Shown here piece by piece: positions 2,600 through 9,738 of a stretch of DNA of 23,153 bases. Numbering within the stretch: the first letter of the stretch is position 1; every line of letters starts with the position of its first letter. Under the pieces are notes generated by a model that saw only the letters and a program-made list of their open reading frames with translations, had not been told where the DNA came from and made no database searches. Source of the stretch: a virus; the IMG/VR virus record IMGVR_UViG_2791355197_000001, positions 1 to 23,153 of that record, one strand, 5' to 3'. The translations under genes and the position numbers were made by a program.

Positions 2600-4222
2600 T
2601 CAGCGGATGAAGTCGGCCATCACCGCCGGCGCGCCGGCGTCGAAGCCGACAACATCAAGCATGCCGGCATCGCTCTGGTCCGCGATCGAGAACCCGGTCG
2701 ACGTCATGCCGACAACCACCAGCTTGGCCGGGATACCGGTCTTCTGGCGGTACTGCTTCAGCGCCTGCACCGGGTGCACCCCACCGGCCCAGGTTTCGTT
2801 GTCGGTGTAGACAAAGAACGCGTCGACCTCGAGTCCCTTCTCCAGCGCGTAAAGCATCGGGAGCGCGCAGTCCGTGCCGCCAAACGGCAGGTTGGAGACA
2901 GCCCGCACGGCGTCCGTAAGACGCTGACGCGGCGAGATGGCCAACGGCGTCAGACCCGCCTCGCCCCCTCCCCAGCGGCCGCCGAAGTGTCGCTGGGAGT
3001 GTCCGGCCGAGGTGAAGCCAACCACATGGGTCTGCCTCTCCGTTGCCATGGTCACCAGCGCCAGCGCCGCGGTGGCATCCCGGCACGAGATCGGAGATCC
3101 CATGATCGGCGCCGTCATCGAACCAGACACGTCGAGCGCGATGAGCACCCGCTTCCCGCTCGCCTTCACGTTCGCAAACGCCTTGTAGAAGGCGCCGTCG
3201 AGCGCATCGATCACAGCCCTGGACGGAACCCAGGAGCCGGATCCGCGAACGCTCCGATCCGACGAGTAAACCGCCATGGCCAGCAGGATCGAGAACGGGT
3301 GCAGGCGCGACTTCCGGATTGCTCCCTCGTCGCCCAACCGCTCGACCACGAGCGCCTCGGCCAACGACAGCGGGGCGATGGTGCCGAGCCGAGTCATGTT
3401 GCCGAGATTGCGGACCAGCGCGCCAAGTCCAAGCGTCGGCAGCATGGCGCGCCATGCGTCCGGATCGGCGTTGTACTCGCTCGGGATCGCCTCCCAAGGC
3501 AGCCTTGCGGCCGCGATGAGATCGAGCAGGTCCTTCTTGCTGGTGCCCGAGCTCATGGCCTTGAGATGCGCCTGCACGATGGTCGGCAGGTCACCATGCG
3601 GGTCGAGCCCACGCATCCAACGATACAGGGCGATGCGCGCCGGCGACTCCAAAGCCGCCGGGTGAGCGGTCTGGAGCAAGCGCTTGTGCGAGTAGCTCTC
3701 GCGCTCGCGGTACTTGATCGCCTGGTACGCGACGTCATCCAGGGACTTCGAGTTGTACCAGTTCGCGATCGCCGTCTTCAGTGACCGACCCCAGCCGCGG
3801 CCGAGCGCGCGCGCAGCCTTCACGAACTGGAACAGATGCGTCGCGGTGCGGCAGACGCGCGGTACCGCGGCCAACGCCAGCTTGCGCACGGCCTGGTCGG
3901 GATGCGCGGCGCCGATCGCCAGCACGAAGATGGCAGGATCGTTCTTCGGCGCCCGGCCCTCGTCCGAGATTTCGACCGTTCGGGCGACGGTGCGTGCCGC
4001 ATCCGCAGCAAAGCAGCGGTCAACGACCTTGGCGTTCTCGCGGGTGAGCGCCGGCGCCGTCTGGTAATACGTCGGCGCATCGCTGCCGAGGATCAGGAAA
4101 CGGTCGAGCCGTGCCCAGTCATCGATCGCGAAAACGAAACCACCGGCATTGTTCTGCACCTGGCGCTCATTGAGCGCCTCGATCTGCGGTACCGGCTTTG
4201 AGACGATATCGGCGTACTTCAT
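2600..4222 (-). CDS. rsr: Ro60-related RNA-binding protein (TROVE + vWA domains)
   Basis: N-terminal QVQNNAGGFVF..RLDRFLILGS..TYY, vWA MIDAS DVSGSM, GGTDCALPM, VYTDNETW, C-terminal MLDVVGFD; 540 aa; GAGGAGG RBS. Confidence 0.96.
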   Translation of the reverse strand: MKYADIVSKPVPQIEALNERQVQNNAGGFVFAIDDWARLDRFLILGSDAPTYYQTAPALTRENAKVVDRCFAADAARTVARTVEISDEGRAPKNDPAIFVLAIGAAHPDQAVRKLALAAVPRVCRTATHLFQFVKAARALGRGWGRSLKTAIANWYNSKSLDDVAYQAIKYRERESYSHKRLLQTAHPAALESPARIALYRWMRGLDPHGDLPTIVQAHLKAMSSGTSKKDLLDLIAAARLPWEAIPSEYNADPDAWRAMLPTLGLGALVRNLGNMTRLGTIAPLSLAEALVVERLGDEGAIRKSRLHPFSILLAMAVYSSDRSVRGSGSWVPSRAVIDALDGAFYKAFANVKASGKRVLIALDVSGSMTAPIMGSPISCRDATAALALVTMATERQTHVVGFTSAGHSQRHFGGRWGGGEAGLTPLAISPRQRLTDAVRAVSNLPFGGTDCALPMLYALEKGLEVDAFFVYTDNETWAGGVHPVQALKQYRQKTGIPAKLVVVGMTSTGFSIADQSDAGMLDVVGFDAGAPAVMADFIR

Positions 4223-4255: not shown

Positions 4256-4338
4256 ACTAGAACGAACGTGAGAGCGGAGATCGGTGTTGGTTCACATTTT
4301 CAAGGTGCGATAACCGAAGTCCTGGGGCTCGTTCTAGT
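4256..4338 (-). ncRNA. Y RNA-like gene 4 (short; apical CTTGAAA loop)
   Basis: CTAGAACGAGCCCCAG..TCGGTTA..CCGATC..CGTTCGTTCTAG terminal stem; same motif set as the other three units; adjacent to rsr. Confidence 0.75.
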
Positions 4339-4371
4339 GGATCAACCTCGAAAGGACGGACCAGTTTGCAA

Positions 4372-4475
4372 GGGCCGAGCGTCAATTTGAGATCGGTGCA
4401 CCGATCTTGCGATCGGTTGCCGGTTTCCTGGCCGGCGGCTTCTGGAGGATAACCGAAACTCGTGGGGCTCGGCCC
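4372..4475 (-). ncRNA. Y RNA-like gene 3 (two internal hairpins)
   Basis: GGGCCGAGCCCCAC..TCGGTTA..CCGATC..CGCTCGGCCC; nested in an extended outer stem 4355-4492. Confidence 0.75.
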
Positions 4476-4513
4476 CAGCAAACTGGTCTGTCGATGAACC
4501 CTTCGAAAGAGAC

Positions 4514-4647
4514 CGGACGAACATGATGGCGAAGATCGGGTTTTAGCGCTCTACTAGGCTGAGCTACGTCACCTTTCGGCAACGACTGGATTTGAACCAG
4601 CGACCTCTACCTCCTGAAGGGTAACCGACACTTCTGGGGCTCGTCCG
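4514..4647 (-). ncRNA. yrlA: YrlA-type Y RNA (Ro-binding stem plus circularly permuted tRNA-like domain)
   Basis: T arm GCTGG TTCAAAT CCAGT precedes an acceptor-like stem closed by GAAA (CGTTGCC/GGTGACG), followed by D arm TAGCTCAGCCTAGTAGAGC; terminal stem CGGACGA/TCGTCCG. Confidence 0.9.
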
Positions 4648-4657
4648 ATACTTTGAA

Positions 4658-4724
4658 GGGCGAACGTAAGAACGGCGATCGGGGGTTTCATTAACAGTGA
4701 AAACCGAAAGCCTGGGGCTCGCCC
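4658..4724 (-). ncRNA. Y RNA-like gene 1 (minimal, 67 nt; apical CTGTTAA loop)
   Basis: GGGCGAGCCCCAG..TCGGTT..CCGATC..CGTTCGCCC with apical hairpin TTTCA CTGTTAA TGAAA. Confidence 0.75.
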
Positions 4725-4808
4725 AAAAGTTGAGCCTCAACGGATAGATGGCACAGCGAAGATTCGCCGCGCCGATTTTGTCGGCAGTTATCCACCGCCG
4801 ATTGTCTT

Positions 4809-4885
4809 TGGTCGGGGCAGCAGGATTCGAACCTGCGACCTGCGGTACCCAAAACCGCCGCGCTCCCGGGCTGCGCTATGCCCCG
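4809..4885 (-). tRNA. tRNA-Pro(TGG)
   Basis: CGGGGCA/TGCCCCG acceptor; arm GCGGT TTTGGGT ACCGC; CCA. Confidence 0.95.
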
Positions 4886-4892
4886 TTGATGA

Positions 4893-4971
4893 TGGCGCCC
4901 ACGGCAGGAGTCGAACCTGCATGCTCCAGTTACGGTACTTGTGCTTCGTAGGCACAGCCGGTTACGTGGGC
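4893..4971 (-). tRNA. atypical tRNA-Arg(ACG) lacking a canonical D arm
   Basis: Acceptor GCCCACG/CGTGGGC, arm TGTGC CTACGAA GCACA, perfect T arm and CCA; only 8 nt between acceptor and anticodon arm; 19-nt variable region. Confidence 0.75.
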
Positions 4972-5160
4972 GAAATTCTGCCTCGCCGAGGTTTCCCCTC
5001 GACTTCTCGTCTCGCTACGGGCGGCAATCGCCTGAGACCGGCCGATCGCTCCGGTCCGCCGCGAGATCACGTCCAGCGCTGCGCAGATCCGCGCGCGGCC
5101 GAAGAAGTTGCCGGCACTGACCGGCTCTCCACCACGTACCTCACGGGGCCCGCTTCGAAT

Positions 5161-6788: not shown

Positions 6789-6876
6789 TGGCGGACGGCC
6801 GAGGAATCGAACCCCCATCGCTCGCGCGAGCCACGGTTTTCAAGACCGCTGTCAGACCATTCCGACGGGACCGTCC
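6789..6876 (-). tRNA. tRNA-Ser(TGA), probable 8/4 fold
   Basis: GGACGGTC/GGCCGTCC 8-bp acceptor, GGGG/CCTC 4-bp T stem, loop CTTGAAA, long variable arm. Confidence 0.9.
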
Positions 6877-6994: not shown

Positions 6995-7531
6995 TCACTT
7001 CTCGAGCTCGACATCCCAGTACAGATAGTCTGTCCAGGACTCGTGCAAGAAGTTCGGCGGGAAGAGCCGCTGGGCCGCGAGCAGATCGAACTGCGTCGGC
7101 TCGAACGGCGCCCGCAACGGCTTCACGCGGAAGCGGTCCTTCCGCATGTTGCAGGGGCTGCACGCCGCGACGATGTTCGTCCAGGACGTCTCGCCGCCGT
7201 CGGCGCGCGGGATGACGTGGTCGAACGTCAGCTCCCCGCGGAGGTGCTGCTCGCCGCAATACTGGCAGCGGAAGCGATCGCGGAGGAAGACGTTGAACCG
7301 CGTGAAGGCAACCCGGCTCGGCCGCCGGACGTATTCGCGCAGCGCGATCACCGACGGCAGCGGCATCTCGGTCGACGGGCTCCGGATGACCTGGTCGTAT
7401 TCCGCGACCACGACGTGAGATCCGCGCACCACCGCCTTGACGGCGTCTTCCCAGCCGAACAGCGACAGCGGGAAATAGGACAGCGGCTGGAAGTCGGCGT
7501 TCAACACCAGCGCCGGATTTGCGGCAAACAT
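6995..7531 (-). CDS. HNH endonuclease (McrA-like, ~178 aa)
   Basis: ALVLNADFQPLS, RFNVFLRDRFRCQYCG, LTFDHVIPR..GG.TSWTNIVAACSPCN.RK; start after GAAAGGAGG. Confidence 0.93.
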   Translation of the reverse strand: MFAANPALVLNADFQPLSYFPLSLFGWEDAVKAVVRGSHVVVAEYDQVIRSPSTEMPLPSVIALREYVRRPSRVAFTRFNVFLRDRFRCQYCGEQHLRGELTFDHVIPRADGGETSWTNIVAACSPCNMRKDRFRVKPLRAPFEPTQFDLLAAQRLFPPNFLHESWTDYLYWDVELEK

Positions 7532-7554
7532 CGTCGACCTCCTTTCTCGGTTGA

Positions 7555-7633: not shown

Positions 7634-7711
7634 TGGTCGGTGTGGCAGGATTTGAACCTGCGGCCCCTTCCGTCCGAGGGAAGTACGCTGACCTGGCTGC
7701 GCTACACACCG
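7634..7711 (-). tRNA. tRNA-Pro(CGG)
   Basis: CGGTGTG/CACACCG acceptor; arm CTTCC CTCGGAC GGAAG (A37). Confidence 0.93.
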
Positions 7712-7712
7712 A

Positions 7713-7786
7713 TGGCGCCCCTGACGAGGATCGAACTCGCCTTCCCGCATCGACAGTGCGGTCCCTTCCCAGATGGGTACAGGGGC
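7713..7786 (-). tRNA. tRNA-Asp(GTC)
   Basis: GCCCCTG/CAGGGGC acceptor; arm CCGCA CTGTCGA TGCGG; G73. Confidence 0.9.
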
Positions 7787-7789
7787 ATT

Positions 7790-7930
7790 GATCTCTCCGG
7801 GACGCCGGCGGCTACCTTGCTCATCGGTCGGCCTCTTGAACCGTCTCGCAGGCTCACGCCTGTGGCCAATTCTTCCCGTAGGCTTTGCGCCGCGCGGTGA
7901 ACGCGCTTGATCCGGCGCCCCGGAGAGATC
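7790..7930 (-). ncRNA. putative structured ncRNA of unknown family
   Basis: 19-bp closing stem GATCTCTCCGGGGCGCCGG/CCGGCGTCCCGGAGAGATC enclosing several hairpins; lies between two tRNAs. Confidence 0.5.
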
Positions 7931-7936
7931 GAAGAT

Positions 7937-8020
7937 TGGTGCGGCCGGCCGGAGTCGAACCGACATGGTTTCCCGTCGCCTCCTCAAGACGATGCGTCTA
8001 CCGAATTTCGCCACGGCCGC
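7937..8020 (-). tRNA. tRNA-Leu(GAG)
   Basis: GCGGCCG acceptor; loop TTGAGGA; variable arm; A73. Confidence 0.93.
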
Positions 8021-8105
8021 AAATTTTGGTGCTGGTCGAAATAAGCGACTGCCTATTCCAAAGTGAGCCAGCGCAGTTGTATCCTTCGCGCAGGAGGATA
8101 CCGAC

Positions 8106-8318
8106 ATGACAGTTCTGCAGGACGTTGGCTCATTCATTCAAAGCCAATCACCGAACCCCGTTTGCGACGACTGTATTGCCGATCGCCTCGGACTTTCGGT
8201 TCGACAGCATGCCAACCATAAGACGAGAGAATTGGCAGGAACCGGTGGGTTTATGCGTCGCGACGCTGAATGCGCAATCTGCAAAAACGAGAAACGGGTA
8301 ATCTCTTGGTCTGCCTGA
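8106..8318 (+). CDS. small Zn-binding hypothetical protein (CDDC...CAIC)
   Basis: AGGAGG RBS; two CxxC pairs flanking an HTH-like segment. Confidence 0.75.
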   Translation: MTVLQDVGSFIQSQSPNPVCDDCIADRLGLSVRQHANHKTRELAGTGGFMRRDAECAICKNEKRVISWSA

Positions 8319-8344
8319 AGGGCCACTCCGTCGCCTTAATTAGA

Positions 8345-8420
8345 TGGTGGGCCACCGCGGACTCGAACCGCGAACCTTCCGCTTAAGAGGCGGACGCTCT
8401 GACCGTTGAGCTAGTGGCCC
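8345..8420 (-). tRNA. tRNA-Lys(CTT)
   Basis: Arm TCCGC CTCTTAA GCGGA; CCA. Confidence 0.95.
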
Positions 8421-8421
8421 A

Positions 8422-8497
8422 TGGTGGGCTCCGCGGGACTCGAACCCGTACCCTTCAGATTAAAAGTCTGCTGCTCTGCCAATCGAGCTACGAGCCC
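8422..8497 (-). tRNA. tRNA-Lys(TTT)
   Basis: Arm CAGA CTTTTAA TCTG; CCA. Confidence 0.95.
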
Positions 8498-8673
8498 GGC
8501 AGATCGGTTGCGGCGGCCAGCCGCTCCGATTTCGCGTGGCGCGCCGTGATGGCGTCGCTCTTCGCCTTCGTGCGCGCGAGGGCGGCCTGGCTCTCGGCAG
8601 AGAGGACATGCACGCCGATCGGCAGCGTCGCCGCCAGCAGGCCACCCATCAGCGTCGTCAGAACAACCGTCAT
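8488..8673 (-). CDS. small membrane-anchored hypothetical protein
   Basis: GAGGAGG RBS; MTVVLTTLMGGLLAATLPIGVHVL; stop codon inside the tRNA-Lys 5' end. Confidence 0.6.
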   Translation of the reverse strand: MTVVLTTLMGGLLAATLPIGVHVLSAESQAALARTKAKSDAITARHAKSERLAAATDLPGS

Positions 8674-8691
8674 GTCGGCCTCCTCGTTTTT

Positions 8692-8765
8692 TGGTGCTCC
8701 AGTCAGGAATCGAACCTGCGTCAACCGCTTATCGAGCGGACGCACTGCCACTGTGCTACAAGAGC
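8692..8765 (-). tRNA. tRNA-Ile(GAT), atypical (C33)
   Basis: Loop TCGATAA closed by CCGC/GCGG; mismatches in acceptor and T stems. Confidence 0.78.
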
Positions 8766-8773
8766 GTTGAAGT

Positions 8774-8848
8774 TGGTGCGTCCGGATGGAATTGAACCAC
8801 CGGTATCGACCATGTCGGGGTCGCGCTCTACCACTGAGCTACGGACGC
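8774..8848 (-). tRNA. tRNA-Val(GAC), C33
   Basis: Arm CGACC CCGACAT GGTCG. Confidence 0.88.
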
Positions 8849-8915
8849 GAACCGGTATCGACTCTCTGACGACTACGTCGCTCGGGTTCACCCGAGCGGC
8901 CGATCTCCGGGTTAA

Positions 8916-8990
8916 TGGTGCGCGCTGACCGGATCGAACGGCCGACATCCTGTGTGTAGGACAGGCGCTCTACCGCTGAGCTAAGCGCGC
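8916..8990 (-). tRNA. tRNA-Val(TAC), C33
   Basis: Arm CCTGT CCTACAC ACAGG. Confidence 0.88.
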
Positions 8991-8997
8991 ATGATCT

Positions 8998-9076
8998 TGG
9001 TGCCCCAGGCCGGATTCGAACCGGCAATGAAGCTGCTTTTGAGGCAGCGGCGTCTACCACATTCCGCCACCGGGGC
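8998..9076 (-). tRNA. tRNA-Leu(CAA), short variable loop
   Basis: Arm GCTGC CTCAAAA GCAGC; Leu-type D arm; variable region only TTCATT. Confidence 0.9.
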
Positions 9077-9105
9077 ATTGTCGTTACAATGGAATTCCAT
9101 TGTCT

Positions 9106-9187
9106 TGGTGCGGCCGGAAGGACTCGAACCTTCACTCCGAAGAACTGGTTCCTGAGACCAGCGCGTCTGCCGTTCCGCCACGGCCGC
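9106..9187 (-). tRNA. tRNA-Leu(CAG)
   Basis: Arm CTGGT CTCAGGA ACCAG. Confidence 0.94.
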
Positions 9188-9192
9188 ATTGA

Positions 9193-9268
9193 TGGTGCCA
9201 CCGGCGCGGATCGAACGCGCGGCCTCGTCCTTACCAAGAACGCGATCTGCCAACTGATCTACGGCGGC
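9193..9268 (-). tRNA. tRNA-Thr(GGT)
   Basis: GCCGCCG acceptor; loop TTGGTAA. Confidence 0.93.
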
Positions 9269-9437
9269 TCACGTGAAAGCTTCACGTGAAAGCTGTGAGC
9301 GATATCGTCGTCACGGGTTCGTGTAATGCGTATTTCCCGGTGTGGGTTACGCCCCGAAATGGGTGCCTCAGTATCGCCCGCGTGTTAAATGACACCCGCT
9401 ACGCCGACGAAATGTTCGGCTGCAGAAAGGAGCGAAA

Positions 9438-9560
9438 ATGTTTGCCGAAGAAGTGCGGTTGACGATCGGACCGTTCGGCATCGCCGGCAAAACCGGCAAT
9501 GCCGTCTTGGTCCTCGTTATCGTGCTGACGTGGATCACAGCCTGCCAGTACGTGTTCTAA
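9438..9560 (+). CDS. 40-aa single-TM peptide
   Basis: AAGGAG RBS; MFAEEVRLTIGPFGIAGKTGNAVLVLVIVLTWITACQYVF* (below the ORF-track cutoff). Confidence 0.6.
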   Translation: MFAEEVRLTIGPFGIAGKTGNAVLVLVIVLTWITACQYVF

Positions 9561-9661
9561 ACGAACTGGTTCTGACAACTGAGGCGTCACGCCGGTGGGT
9601 TGCAGCCATCGGCGTGACGAAAACTAGCACCTCTCGGCCGATTAGAACAAGCCCGGATCGT

Positions 9662-9738
9662 TGGTGCCCGCAGCATGGGATCGAACCTGCGACCTCTCGC
9701 CTACAATGCGAGCGCTGCTACCGCTGAGCTATGCGGGC
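9662..9738 (-). tRNA. tRNA-Thr(TGT), bulged D and T stems
   Basis: Arm CTCGC ATTGTAG GCGAG; extra nucleotide in the T stem. Confidence 0.82.

What the first reader, a model, noticed from the sequence alone, without database searches (positions are those of the whole stretch)
4256..4724. Four tandem Y RNAs, each displaying a different anticodon-loop mimic: candidate Ro60-borne tRNA-decoy system
Seen in sequence: four minus-strand units share a scaffold (5' CGAGCCCCA..TCGGTT..CCGATC..YGYTCG 3', self-complementary ends) but differ in the apical part. 3-7 nt after TCGGTT, each unit carries a 7-mer with the anticodon-loop pattern Y-T-NNN-R-A. These are CTGTTAA (4691-4697, Asn, identical to the array's tRNA-Asn loop, in a perfect TTTCA/TGAAA stem), TTCAGGA (4612-4618, Leu-CAG-like), CTCCAGA (4441-4447, Trp-like, weak stem) and CTTGAAA (4298-4304, identical to the array's tRNA-Ser(TGA) loop). 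Established: Rsr binds Y RNAs through a conserved stem, and the other module acts as an effector or tRNA mimic. Inference: this is a modular constant-scaffold/variable-insert array. Ro60 could present anticodon loops as decoys or sensors for host anticodon nucleases (PrrC/RloC, VapC, PARIS AriB types) or for tRNA-modifying enzymes.
Basis: partly seen in the sequence, partly recalled or inferred. Interest (0 to 1): 0.92.

Follow-up and report, generated by a model that had tools for sequence, protein, structure and literature searches.

The report
Prophage Y RNAs showing anticodon-like loops
Four small RNA genes in front of a prophage Ro60 (rsr) gene share one Ro60-docking stem but carry different tips, and two tips look like a tRNA anticodon arm, a design that recurs in many phage rsr loci and is not described in the papers I could read.

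Summary
Four minus-strand units (4658-4724, 4512-4649, 4371-4476, 4257-4337) lie directly upstream of a prophage rsr gene (2600-4222). They share a covarying three-helix scaffold, and all four heptamers sit at the stated coordinates.

The units are Y RNAs. Unit 2 is a YrlA-type permuted tRNA mimic.

"Each unit shows an anticodon-loop mimic" is only partly right:
- Unit 1 is a clean 5-bp stem with the 7-nt loop CUGUUAA.
- Unit 4 carries the recurrent CUUGAAA motif, here in a 9-nt loop.
- In unit 2 the heptamer overlaps a 3-bp/5-nt-loop "V" hairpin.
- In unit 3 the heptamer is in no hairpin.

A hairpin with a 7-nt Y-U-NNN-R-A loop follows the conserved UUAYC in 19 of 87 units, against about 1.2 expected. 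In a second, previously unexamined set it occurs in 14 of 89. The loops carry 22 different triplets and almost never A34.

Close relatives keep the scaffold and swap the tip. The decoy function is untested. The host genome has no RtcB, and rsr was not found in the related genomes searched.

Verdict: a new variant of a known kind, of real interest.

The parts
2600..4222 (-). rsr (Ro60 orthologue), 540 aa, with a GAGGAGG ribosome-binding site just upstream
   Evidence: Pfam TROVE 9e-33 and vWA_Ro60 2e-64. Full-length match to D. radiodurans Rsr 2NVO, E 1e-116. Single copy in the genome, and not found in 36 genomes of the same genus or 24 of the same order.
4658..4724 (-). Y RNA unit 1: scaffold plus one apical hairpin
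   Evidence: R1 78.2 bits. Fold -26.2 kcal/mol, z -4.0.
4686..4702 (-). Unit 1 anticodon-arm look-alike: 5-bp stem UUUCA/UGAAA and 7-nt loop CUGUUAA (4691-4697)
   Evidence: The loop is identical to that of the array's tRNA-Asn, but the stem is unrelated to that tRNA's CCCGG/CCGGG stem.
4512..4649 (-). Y RNA unit 2: YrlA-type, circularly permuted tRNA-like body
   Evidence: Rfam RF02553 37 bits, E 4e-6, below the gathering score of 69. R1 46.5 bits.
4610..4620 (-).
   Evidence: The same UCAGG loop sits on CCUU/AAGG and UCUU/AAGA stems in L136 and L114. The V stem-loop is described in PMC4201824.
4585..4601 (-). Unit 2 T-arm-like hairpin (loop UUCAAAU)
   Evidence: Rfam alignment and fold.
4567..4584 (-). 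Unit 2 acceptor-like hairpin, 7 bp closed by GAAA
4548..4566 (-). Unit 2 D-arm-like hairpin (UAGCUCAGCCUAGUAGAGC)
4371..4476 (-). Y RNA unit 3: scaffold plus two G+C-rich hairpins. The heptamer CUCCAGA (4441-4447) lies in an unpaired junction.
   Evidence: R1 35.6 bits. Fold. Relatives at this array position carry a T-arm instead.
4257..4337 (-). Y RNA unit 4: scaffold plus one apical hairpin
   Evidence: R1 74.9 bits. Fold -23.5 kcal/mol, z -3.2.
4292..4310 (-). Unit 4 hairpin: stem UCGCA/UGUGA and 9-nt loop C-CUUGAAA-A (heptamer 4298-4304)
   Evidence: CUUGAA recurs at this position in 8 of 176 units against 0.9 expected, on unrelated stems.

Best explanation
The region is an array of four Y RNA genes that a prophage carries together with its own Ro60 protein (Rsr). 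Each RNA has a constant part: paired 5' and 3' ends, the GNCGAG-CCCCA internal loop, two short inner helices and the UUAYC motif. By analogy with studied Y RNAs this part docks on Rsr. Each RNA also has an exchangeable tip made of tRNA parts. Unit 2 carries a whole permuted tRNA body (YrlA type). Units 1 and 4 carry only an anticodon-arm look-alike, with an Asn-type loop CUGUUAA and a Ser(UGA)-type motif CUUGAAA. Unit 3 carries hairpins unrelated to tRNA. The RNAs are probably cut out of the long tRNA-Y RNA-rsr transcript. They then act as adaptors that bring the Rsr ring, and the exonuclease it recruits, to factors that read tRNA parts, or that titrate those factors. For the anticodon-arm type, the factor would be one that reads anticodon loops. 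Shown: sequence, covarying structure, linkage to rsr, and enrichment of anticodon-like loops. Inferred: Rsr binding, processing, and the partner.
For: Linkage to rsr:
- The gene is rsr.
- The units lie 35-500 nt upstream on the same strand.
- All 88 R1 hits and all 98 R2 hits in rsr loci are on the rsr strand.

Scaffold structure:
- 96.2% of cells are paired.
- 14 of 16 pairs show changes on both sides.
- Slid controls give 31-47% paired.

Unit 2 matches YrlA with T, acceptor-like and D hairpins.

Anticodon-like tips in the discovery set:
- 19 of 87 units are positive, against 1.18 +/- 1.04 in dinucleotide shuffles (maximum 6 in 2000).
- 20 of 76 candidate 7-nt loops fit, against 1.4 expected from permuting within loops.
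- Among 64 pattern classes of equal information, Y-U..R-A ranks first with 20; the next class has 5.
- The background in rsr coding DNA is 1.4-1.7%.

Replication:
- In unseen units, 14 of 89 are positive, and 10 of 24 loops on stems of 4 bp or more fit.
- In cultured actinophages, 2 strict and 2 near cases occur among about 13 units.

Loop content:
- There are 22 different triplets.
- N34 is G 15, U 10, C 7, A 1, while A is 30% of the local composition. The single A34 is ACG.
- G36 goes with G37 in 4 of 7 cases.

The same loop sits on different stems. CUGUUAA is found on UUUCA/UGAAA (window), UAUC/GAUA (L235) and UUCUC/GAGAA (L290).

Published precedent:
- Y RNAs tether Ro60 to effectors.
- YrlA is modified by tRNA enzymes.
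- M. smegmatis YrlA and YrlB are cut from one precursor (PMC4201824).
- A phage Ro60 binds two phage Y RNA-like RNAs and host PNPase (PMC12135203).
Against: - Only two of the four window units fit, and unit 4 has a 9-nt loop flanked by a C/A mismatch.
- The tip of unit 1 is not kept in the closest relatives L001, L002 and L180.
- Only 16-22% of units in related loci are strictly positive.
- The CUUGAAA motif also occurs without a clear stem.
- Long units fold unreliably, so many V hairpins are not in the minimum-energy fold.
- R2 was trained on the discovery set, so the test set is not fully independent.
- Related phages are not independent samples.
- There is no expression, binding or modification data.
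Confidence: 0.6

Rival explanations
1. These are ordinary Y RNAs, and their tips merely need a stable small hairpin, for example a U-turn loop that helps folding or contacts Rsr or PNPase. The likeness to anticodon loops has no functional meaning, and the four window heptamers are partly coincidence.
For: Units 2 and 3 do not show a proper loop. Most units in related loci have other tips. Published short Y RNAs have small pyrimidine-rich loops with no tRNA reading.
Against: This does not explain the near absence of A34, the G36-G37 coupling, or identity to real anticodon loops (CUGUUAA, CUCUUAA, CUCAAAA, CUGCAAA, UUGCUAA are all in this prophage's own tRNAs). It also does not explain why the second dominant loop class in the tips is the T-loop.
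Confidence: 0.25
2. The anticodon-arm Y RNAs are decoys or sponges, held on Rsr, for host anticodon nucleases, and they protect the tRNA pool during infection.
For: The RNAs lie inside a phage tRNA array of about 30 genes. Several of this phage's own tRNAs have deviant anticodon loops, with C33 in Val x2 and Ile, while the Y RNA loops are canonical. Tips turn over fast between close relatives, as expected in an arms race. Displayed triplets include GUU, UGU and UUU, the targets of PARIS AriB (PMC12409363). Phage tRNAs are known to counter such nucleases (PMC11464382 and PMC11555353, listed).
Against: There is no direct evidence. The 22 different triplets are far more than the known nuclease targets. 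A stoichiometric decoy has to outcompete abundant tRNA. Why Rsr would be needed is unexplained. Chromosomal, non-phage Y RNAs show similar loops (L298 CUUCUAA, L299 CUGUCAC).
Confidence: 0.15
3. The anticodon-like tips are relics. Pieces of neighbouring tRNA genes were captured by recombination into Y RNA genes and still look like tRNA, but are not used as such.
For: Y RNAs sit among tRNA genes. Other units carry lone T-arms, or a native-order D/anticodon/variable/T block (L220:65-207). YrlA is thought to derive from tRNA.
Against: The stems are not tRNA stems. Unit 1 has UUUCA/UGAAA against CCCGG/CCGGG in tRNA-Asn, and unit 4 has UCGCA/UGUGA against GCGGU/ACCGU in the Ser(UGA)-like gene. In many units the conserved UUAUC itself forms the 5' strand of the stem. 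Identical loops persist on different stems in phages whose Rsr is only 45-49% identical to the window's, which indicates selection on the loop.
Confidence: 0.1
4. The region encodes small proteins (mechanical ORFs 4257-4481, 4342-4524, 4382-4582) rather than RNAs.
For: ORFs of 60-74 aa exist on the minus strand.
Against: Variation follows base-pairing, not codons. The units repeat a non-coding scaffold. A YrlA match covers the middle of the region. The tips differ completely between close relatives while the flanks stay fixed.
Confidence: 0.01

Closest known systems
YrlA (Rfam RF02553; S. Typhimurium, M. smegmatis)
   Same: Encoded next to rsr on the same strand. The ends pair. A GNCGA-type motif sits near the 5' end. 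The conserved YUAY is followed by V, T, acceptor-like and D hairpins in permuted order.
   Different: Unit 2 scores 37 bits against a gathering score of 69. Its motif is GNCGAG-CCCCA rather than GNCGAAN0-1G. It is prophage-borne and has no rtcBA neighbours, and RtcB is absent from the genome. The S. Typhimurium structure paper states that YrlA lacks the anticodon loop.
Short second Y RNAs (S. Typhimurium and M. smegmatis YrlB, D. radiodurans Yrn2)
   Same: A second, shorter Rsr-bound RNA from the same locus, folding as a long hairpin. M. smegmatis YrlB has a possible T-arm. Units in L002, L180, L185, L187 and L219 likewise carry a lone T-arm.
   Different: Units 1 and 4 end in a 7-nt or 9-nt anticodon-type loop, not a small pyrimidine-rich loop. 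There are four units here and up to six in relatives, against two in the studied species.
D. radiodurans Yrn1 'anticodon arm'
   Same: Chen et al. 2014 drew a 5-bp stem-loop of Yrn1 as a potential anticodon arm.
   Different: That loop has 6 nt, and no anticodon-like frame or variation of the triplet was reported. Here the frame C/U-U-NNN-R-A recurs with 22 triplets.
Thermus phage phiLo Ro60 with Yrl1/Yrl2 (PMC12135203)
   Same: A phage-encoded Ro60 with Y RNA-like genes directly upstream. Binding to Ro60 and a complex with host PNPase were shown.
   Different: Two RNAs, with no tRNA-like or anticodon-like tip reported. That Ro60 is only distantly related to this one (E 7e-7 over 180 residues).
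Anticodon-arm mimics outside Y RNAs (E. coli thrS operator, TYMV tRNA-like structure)
   Same: Hairpins that copy an anticodon arm in order to be read by a tRNA-binding protein. The thrS case rests on my own knowledge. TYMV is named.
   Different: Those are cis elements of an mRNA or a viral genome aimed at one synthetase. Here the mimic sits on a trans-acting Ro60 scaffold and the displayed triplet varies.

Membership tests
Bacterial/phage Y RNA | Encoded within about 2 kb of rsr, on the same strand | tested here: met
   Units lie at 4257-4724 and the rsr start is at 4222, all on the minus strand. All 186 model hits in rsr loci are on the rsr strand.
Bacterial/phage Y RNA | 5' and 3' ends pair into a stem interrupted by an internal loop | tested here: met
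   Folds. Covariation: 96.2% paired and 14 of 16 pairs with double changes.
Bacterial/phage Y RNA | GNCGAAN0-1G motif near the 5' end (Chen 2014) | tested here: inconclusive
   The window has GGCGAGC, GACGAGC, GCCGAGC and AACGAGC, a GNCGAG variant (AACGAGC lacks the leading G). More distant units found by the same model have GGGCCGAAG.
Bacterial/phage Y RNA | Bound and stabilised by Rsr | not testable with these tools
   Needs co-immunoprecipitation.
YrlA (RF02553), unit 2 only | T-arm, closed acceptor-like hairpin and D-arm in that order inside the Y stem | tested here: met
   Rfam alignment covers model positions 1-114, E 4e-6.
YrlA (RF02553), unit 2 only | Score at or above Rfam's gathering threshold | tested here: not met
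   37 bits against 69. The outer helices differ from the enterobacterial model.
Anticodon stem-loop look-alike | 5-bp stem closing a 7-nt loop | tested here: met
   Met for unit 1. Not met for unit 4 (9-nt loop), unit 2 (3 bp with 5 nt, or 2 bp with 7 nt) or unit 3 (no hairpin).
Anticodon stem-loop look-alike | Y32, U33, R37, A38, with a triplet that exists as a bacterial anticodon | tested here: met
   Units 1, 2 and 4 have GUU, CAG and UGA. Their loops are identical or one base from those of the array's tRNA-Asn, tRNA-Leu(CAG) and Ser(UGA)-like gene.
Anticodon stem-loop look-alike | Frame conserved while the triplet varies among homologues | tested here: met
   19 of 87 and 14 of 89 units are positive, against about 1.2 expected. 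There are 22 triplets and A34 occurs once in 33.
Anticodon stem-loop look-alike | Recognised by anticodon-loop enzymes (t6A, i6A, Q, m1G) or binders | not testable with these tools
   Needs modification mapping or binding assays.
Anti-defence tRNA decoy | Binds or is cut by a tRNA-targeting defence nuclease and relieves defence | not testable with these tools
   Only circumstantial overlap of triplets with the AriB targets.
tRNA gene | Full cloverleaf with acceptor end | tested here: not met
   ARAGORN and Rfam tRNA call none of the four units. The only trace is a 15.9-bit partial hit on unit 2.

The most novel reading that the evidence does not exclude
Anticodon-arm Y RNAs are programmable adaptors. 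The displayed triplet decides which anticodon reader the Rsr-exonuclease particle engages. Phages swap the tip as a cassette in an arms race over the tRNA pool.
Probability: 0.2. Interest if true: 0.9.

Novelty: new variant of a known kind. Interest (0 to 1): 0.72.

Why it matters
What the variable half of bacterial Y RNAs binds is still open, and no partner is known for the tRNA-like domain of YrlA. A class of Y RNAs whose tip is only an anticodon arm, with many different triplets, narrows the search to factors that read anticodon loops. It also gives simple reagents, since a 70-nt RNA needs only its triplet changed. The class links phage Ro60 to the current work on tRNA-targeting defence and phage counter-measures. 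It further suggests that the published 'V stem-loop' of YrlA may in many cases be an anticodon arm. In units such as L180:1068 and L187:1093 the order hairpin, AGGUC or a near variant, T arm, acceptor hairpin, D arm is that of a tRNA opened between the D arm and the anticodon arm.

Tried and rejected
- Rfam at gathering score finds no Y RNA here. Only the E-value mode shows YrlA for unit 2.
- The 14-base pattern scan of genome contigs returned 120 loci, almost all chance single hits. Only L114 and L136 were real.
- blastn against cultured phages found only the tRNA-like core of unit 2, in mycobacteriophage Sparky.
- RF02553 across 151 genomes of the phylum gave two matches above the cut-off. 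Most weaker matches look like tandem tRNAs rather than Y RNAs, a reading I did not check.
- R1 is weak on actinophage Y RNAs.
- The terminator-like calls at 4708-4727 are simply the scaffold of unit 1.
- Small ORFs over the units were rejected as coding.
- A link to RtcB repair was rejected, because there is no RtcB in the complete genome.
- Recent copying of tRNA anticodon arms was rejected, because the stems differ.
- Two Y RNA reviews (PMC10870794, PMC6047535) are not held. Prior description of anticodon-like V loops there cannot be excluded.

Full report
**What is there.** The window is part of contig 45 of an 8.4 Mb bacterial genome. It reads as a prophage. About 30 tRNA genes lie on the minus strand. 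There is an HNH endonuclease, a superinfection-immunity protein and a tail-fibre-like GDSL protein. ORF 2600-4222 (-) is a full-length Ro60/Rsr: TROVE plus Ro60 vWA domains, and E 1e-116 to D. radiodurans Rsr, 2NVO. It is the only rsr in the genome. None was found in 36 genomes of the same genus or 24 of the same order. RtcB is absent from the complete genome. The module is therefore phage cargo and is not the Salmonella-type rsr-yrlBA-rtcBA operon.

**The observation.** Between tRNA-Pro (4809-4885) and the rsr start lie four minus-strand units:
- U1, 4658-4724
- U2, 4512-4649
- U3, 4371-4476
- U4, 4257-4337

All four share CGAGCCCCA, then N5-6, TCGGTT, the tip, CCGATC, and CGYTCG, with complementary ends. 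CTGTTAA recurs only in the loop of tRNA-Asn. CTTGAAA recurs at 6838-6844, in a class II tRNA-Ser(UGA)-like gene that ARAGORN and Rfam miss. U2's TTCAGGA differs by one base from the tRNA-Leu(CAG) loop CTCAGGA.

**They are Y RNAs.** U2 matches Rfam YrlA over the whole model (37 bits, E 4e-6, below the gathering score of 69). It has T, closed acceptor-like (7 bp) and D hairpins in the permuted order typical of YrlA.

I built a covariance model of the scaffold from ten short units (A2, R1). The scaffold is an outer helix of 8 bp, a middle helix of 4 bp and an inner helix of 4 bp.
- R1 finds exactly the four units in the window (78.2, 46.5, 35.6, 74.9 bits).
- It finds nothing else in the genome.
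- It finds 2-6 units beside rsr in many phage and metagenome loci, fetched through the Rsr protein.
- All hits are on the rsr strand.
- On the 88 aligned hits, 96.2% of cells pair and 14 of 16 pairs show changes on both sides. Slid controls give 31-47%. The caveat is that this alignment was fitted to the model.

The features match Chen et al. 2014 (PMC4201824). Their 5' motif GNCGAAN0-1G appears here as a GNCGAG variant. Their conserved YUAY is UUAYC here. They also describe a 'less-conserved V stem-loop upstream of T'.

**Constant scaffold, variable tip.** Loci whose Rsr is 82-87% identical to the window's (L001, L002, L180) keep the U1 scaffold almost base for base but carry a different apical hairpin. 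At the U3 position they carry a lone T-arm that the window lacks. The modular reading is right.

**The anticodon-loop claim, unit by unit.**
- **U1.** A 5-bp stem (UUUCA/UGAAA) closes the 7-nt loop CUGUUAA in the minimum-energy fold. The stem is unrelated to the CCCGG/CCGGG stem of tRNA-Asn, so it is not a recent copy.
- **U4.** The stem UCGCA/UGUGA closes a 9-nt loop, C-CUUGAAA-A.
  - L002 and L225 have the same motif in 9-nt loops on other stems.
  - L220 and L217 have CUUGAAC as an exact 7-nt loop on 5-bp stems.
  - CUUGAA occurs in 8 of 176 units against 0.9 expected, sometimes without a clear stem.
- **U2.** The heptamer overlaps the V hairpin, CCU-UCAGG-AGG. Two planctomycete loci keep UCAGG on CCUU/AAGG and UCUU/AAGA. 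A 3-4 bp stem with a pentaloop is at least as good a reading as a 7-nt loop.
- **U3.** CUCCAGA is not in a hairpin.

Using the model alignment, I took the 28 nt after the inner helix. These always begin with UUAYC. I asked for a 7-nt stretch Y-U-NNN-R-A flanked by at least 3 contiguous pairs.

*Discovery set (87 unique units)*
- 19 units are positive, against 1.18 +/- 1.04 in dinucleotide shuffles (maximum 6 of 2000).
- 20 of 76 candidate 7-nt loops fit, against 1.4 +/- 1.2 when each loop is permuted.
- Of 64 pattern classes of equal information this one ranks first with 20; the next has 5.
- Over the whole tips, the other dominant class is the T-loop.
- Chance hairpins in rsr coding DNA of the same phages fit in 1.4-1.7% of cases.

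*Unseen set*
- I had formed the idea on those data, so I built R2 from the 88 hits.
- I searched loci where R1 had found nothing, plus 22 new loci.
- R2 gave 98 hits, all on the rsr strand.
- 14 of 89 unique units are positive. 14 of 56 loops fit, and 10 of 24 on stems of 4 bp or more.

*Cultured actinophages*
- Ten phages gave 2 strict cases (Cece, Cashline) and 2 near cases (Bxz1 CUGUCAC, Phabba) among about 13 units.
- None of these records annotates the RNAs.

*Loop content and folding*
- Over both sets there are 33 positives with 22 triplets.
- N34 is G 15, U 10, C 7, A 1, although A is 30% of the local composition. The one A34 is ACG, which to my knowledge is the only A34 anticodon natural in bacteria.
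- G36 is followed by G37 in 4 of 7 cases. Other N36 are followed by A37 in 25 of 26.
- In 15 short units the 7-nt loop is in the whole-unit minimum-energy fold.
- Often the conserved UUAUC is itself the 5' strand of the stem, as in UUAUC-CUNNNAA-GAUAA.
- The loop CUGUUAA of U1 recurs on UAUC/GAUA (L235) and UUCUC/GAGAA (L290). Rsr in those phages is only 45-49% identical to the window's.

**Reading.** The tips of these Y RNAs are built from tRNA parts:
- a whole permuted body (YrlA type);
- a lone T-arm, already suspected for M. smegmatis YrlB;
- in about one unit in six, a lone anticodon arm.

The third kind is new as far as the literature I could read goes. The YrlA structure paper states that YrlA 'lacks the anticodon loop'. 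Chen et al. note only a 5-bp/6-nt 'anticodon arm' in Yrn1.

In YrlA-type units such as L180:1068 and L187:1093 the order is hairpin, then AGGUC or a near variant, T arm, acceptor hairpin, D arm. That is the order of a tRNA opened between the D arm and the anticodon arm. The published 'V' stem-loop may therefore often be an anticodon arm. This is inference.

**Mechanism.**
- Shown: sequence, structure, linkage to rsr, and enrichment.
- Inferred from studied Y RNAs: the constant stem docks on Rsr, and the tip recruits or titrates a partner. Known examples are PNPase in D. radiodurans, Salmonella and phage phiLo.
- No promoter-like or true terminator-like site separates the tRNAs, the units and rsr, so one precursor is likely, as in M. 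smegmatis.
- For U1 and U4 the partner should be something that reads anticodon loops.
- The decoy model is attractive. Phage tRNAs counter tRNA-targeting defence (PMC11464382 and PMC11555353, listed). AriB cuts Lys(UUU), Thr(UGU) and Asn(GUU). This phage's own Val, Ile and Thr tRNAs have deviant loops. However, nothing tests the model, and 22 triplets exceed the known targets.

**Limits.**
- Everything here is computational.
- Related phages are not independent samples.
- The thresholds (28 nt, 3 bp) were chosen after seeing the data, although they were held fixed for the unseen set.
- R2 carries weak information from the tips of the discovery set.
- Two reviews could not be read.

**Verdict.** At the family level the constant-frame, variable-triplet pattern is real. 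This is a new variant of a known kind, with interest 0.72.

Noticed in passing
window 6790-6876 (-): A class II tRNA-Ser(UGA)-like gene with a 7-bp acceptor stem, anticodon loop CUUGAAA, a long variable arm and an encoded CCA. It has one mismatch in the T stem. Neither ARAGORN nor Rfam at gathering score calls it.
   Followed up: partly
window 4896-4971 (-): A tRNA-like gene with anticodon ACG, almost no D arm and a long variable region. Rfam tRNA scores 34.6 bits. ARAGORN misses it.
   Followed up: no
window 7634-9738 (-), tRNA array: Only 18 of 29 called tRNAs have a canonical Y-U-NNN-R-A loop. Val(GAC), Val(UAC) and Ile(GAU) have C33. Thr(UGU) has AUUGUAG. Gly(GCC) and Arg(CCG) start with G32. 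This resembles the anticodon-loop changes reported for phage tRNAs that escape nucleases.
   Followed up: partly
window 4972-5160 (-): A G+C-rich structured spacer between tRNA genes. The only match is a weak hit to epsC RNA (25 bits, E 0.08).
   Followed up: no
L187:918-1934; L275:3643-4204; L281:3314-4040: Arrays of five or six Y RNA units occur beside one rsr gene. In L275 and L281 they lie downstream of rsr, not upstream.
   Followed up: partly
L220:65-207 (same as L013:213-355): A Y RNA unit whose tip is a native-order tRNA body (D arm, anticodon arm with loop GAUACCC, AGGUC, T arm). The Y scaffold takes the place of the acceptor stem, which is a different permutation from YrlA.
   Followed up: no
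L327-L336 (cultured Gordonia, Mycobacterium, Microbacterium and Streptomyces phages): In six of the ten phage records fetched, the 'Ro-like RNA binding protein' gene is preceded by an unannotated gap of about 300-650 nt, and none of the ten annotates a Y RNA. Where I looked, the region upstream of the gene holds Y RNA-like units.
   Followed up: partly
window 4293-4303 and L329:1345-1421 (phage Bxz1): The 11-mer CTTGAAAATGT is shared between the tip of window unit 4 and a Y RNA-like unit of mycobacteriophage Bxz1, although the Rsr proteins are only 46% identical.
   Followed up: no
window 6995-7540 (-): An HNH endonuclease gene sits inside the tRNA array. The mechanical ORF runs on over four tRNA genes, so the true start must be downstream of about 7550.
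   Followed up: no
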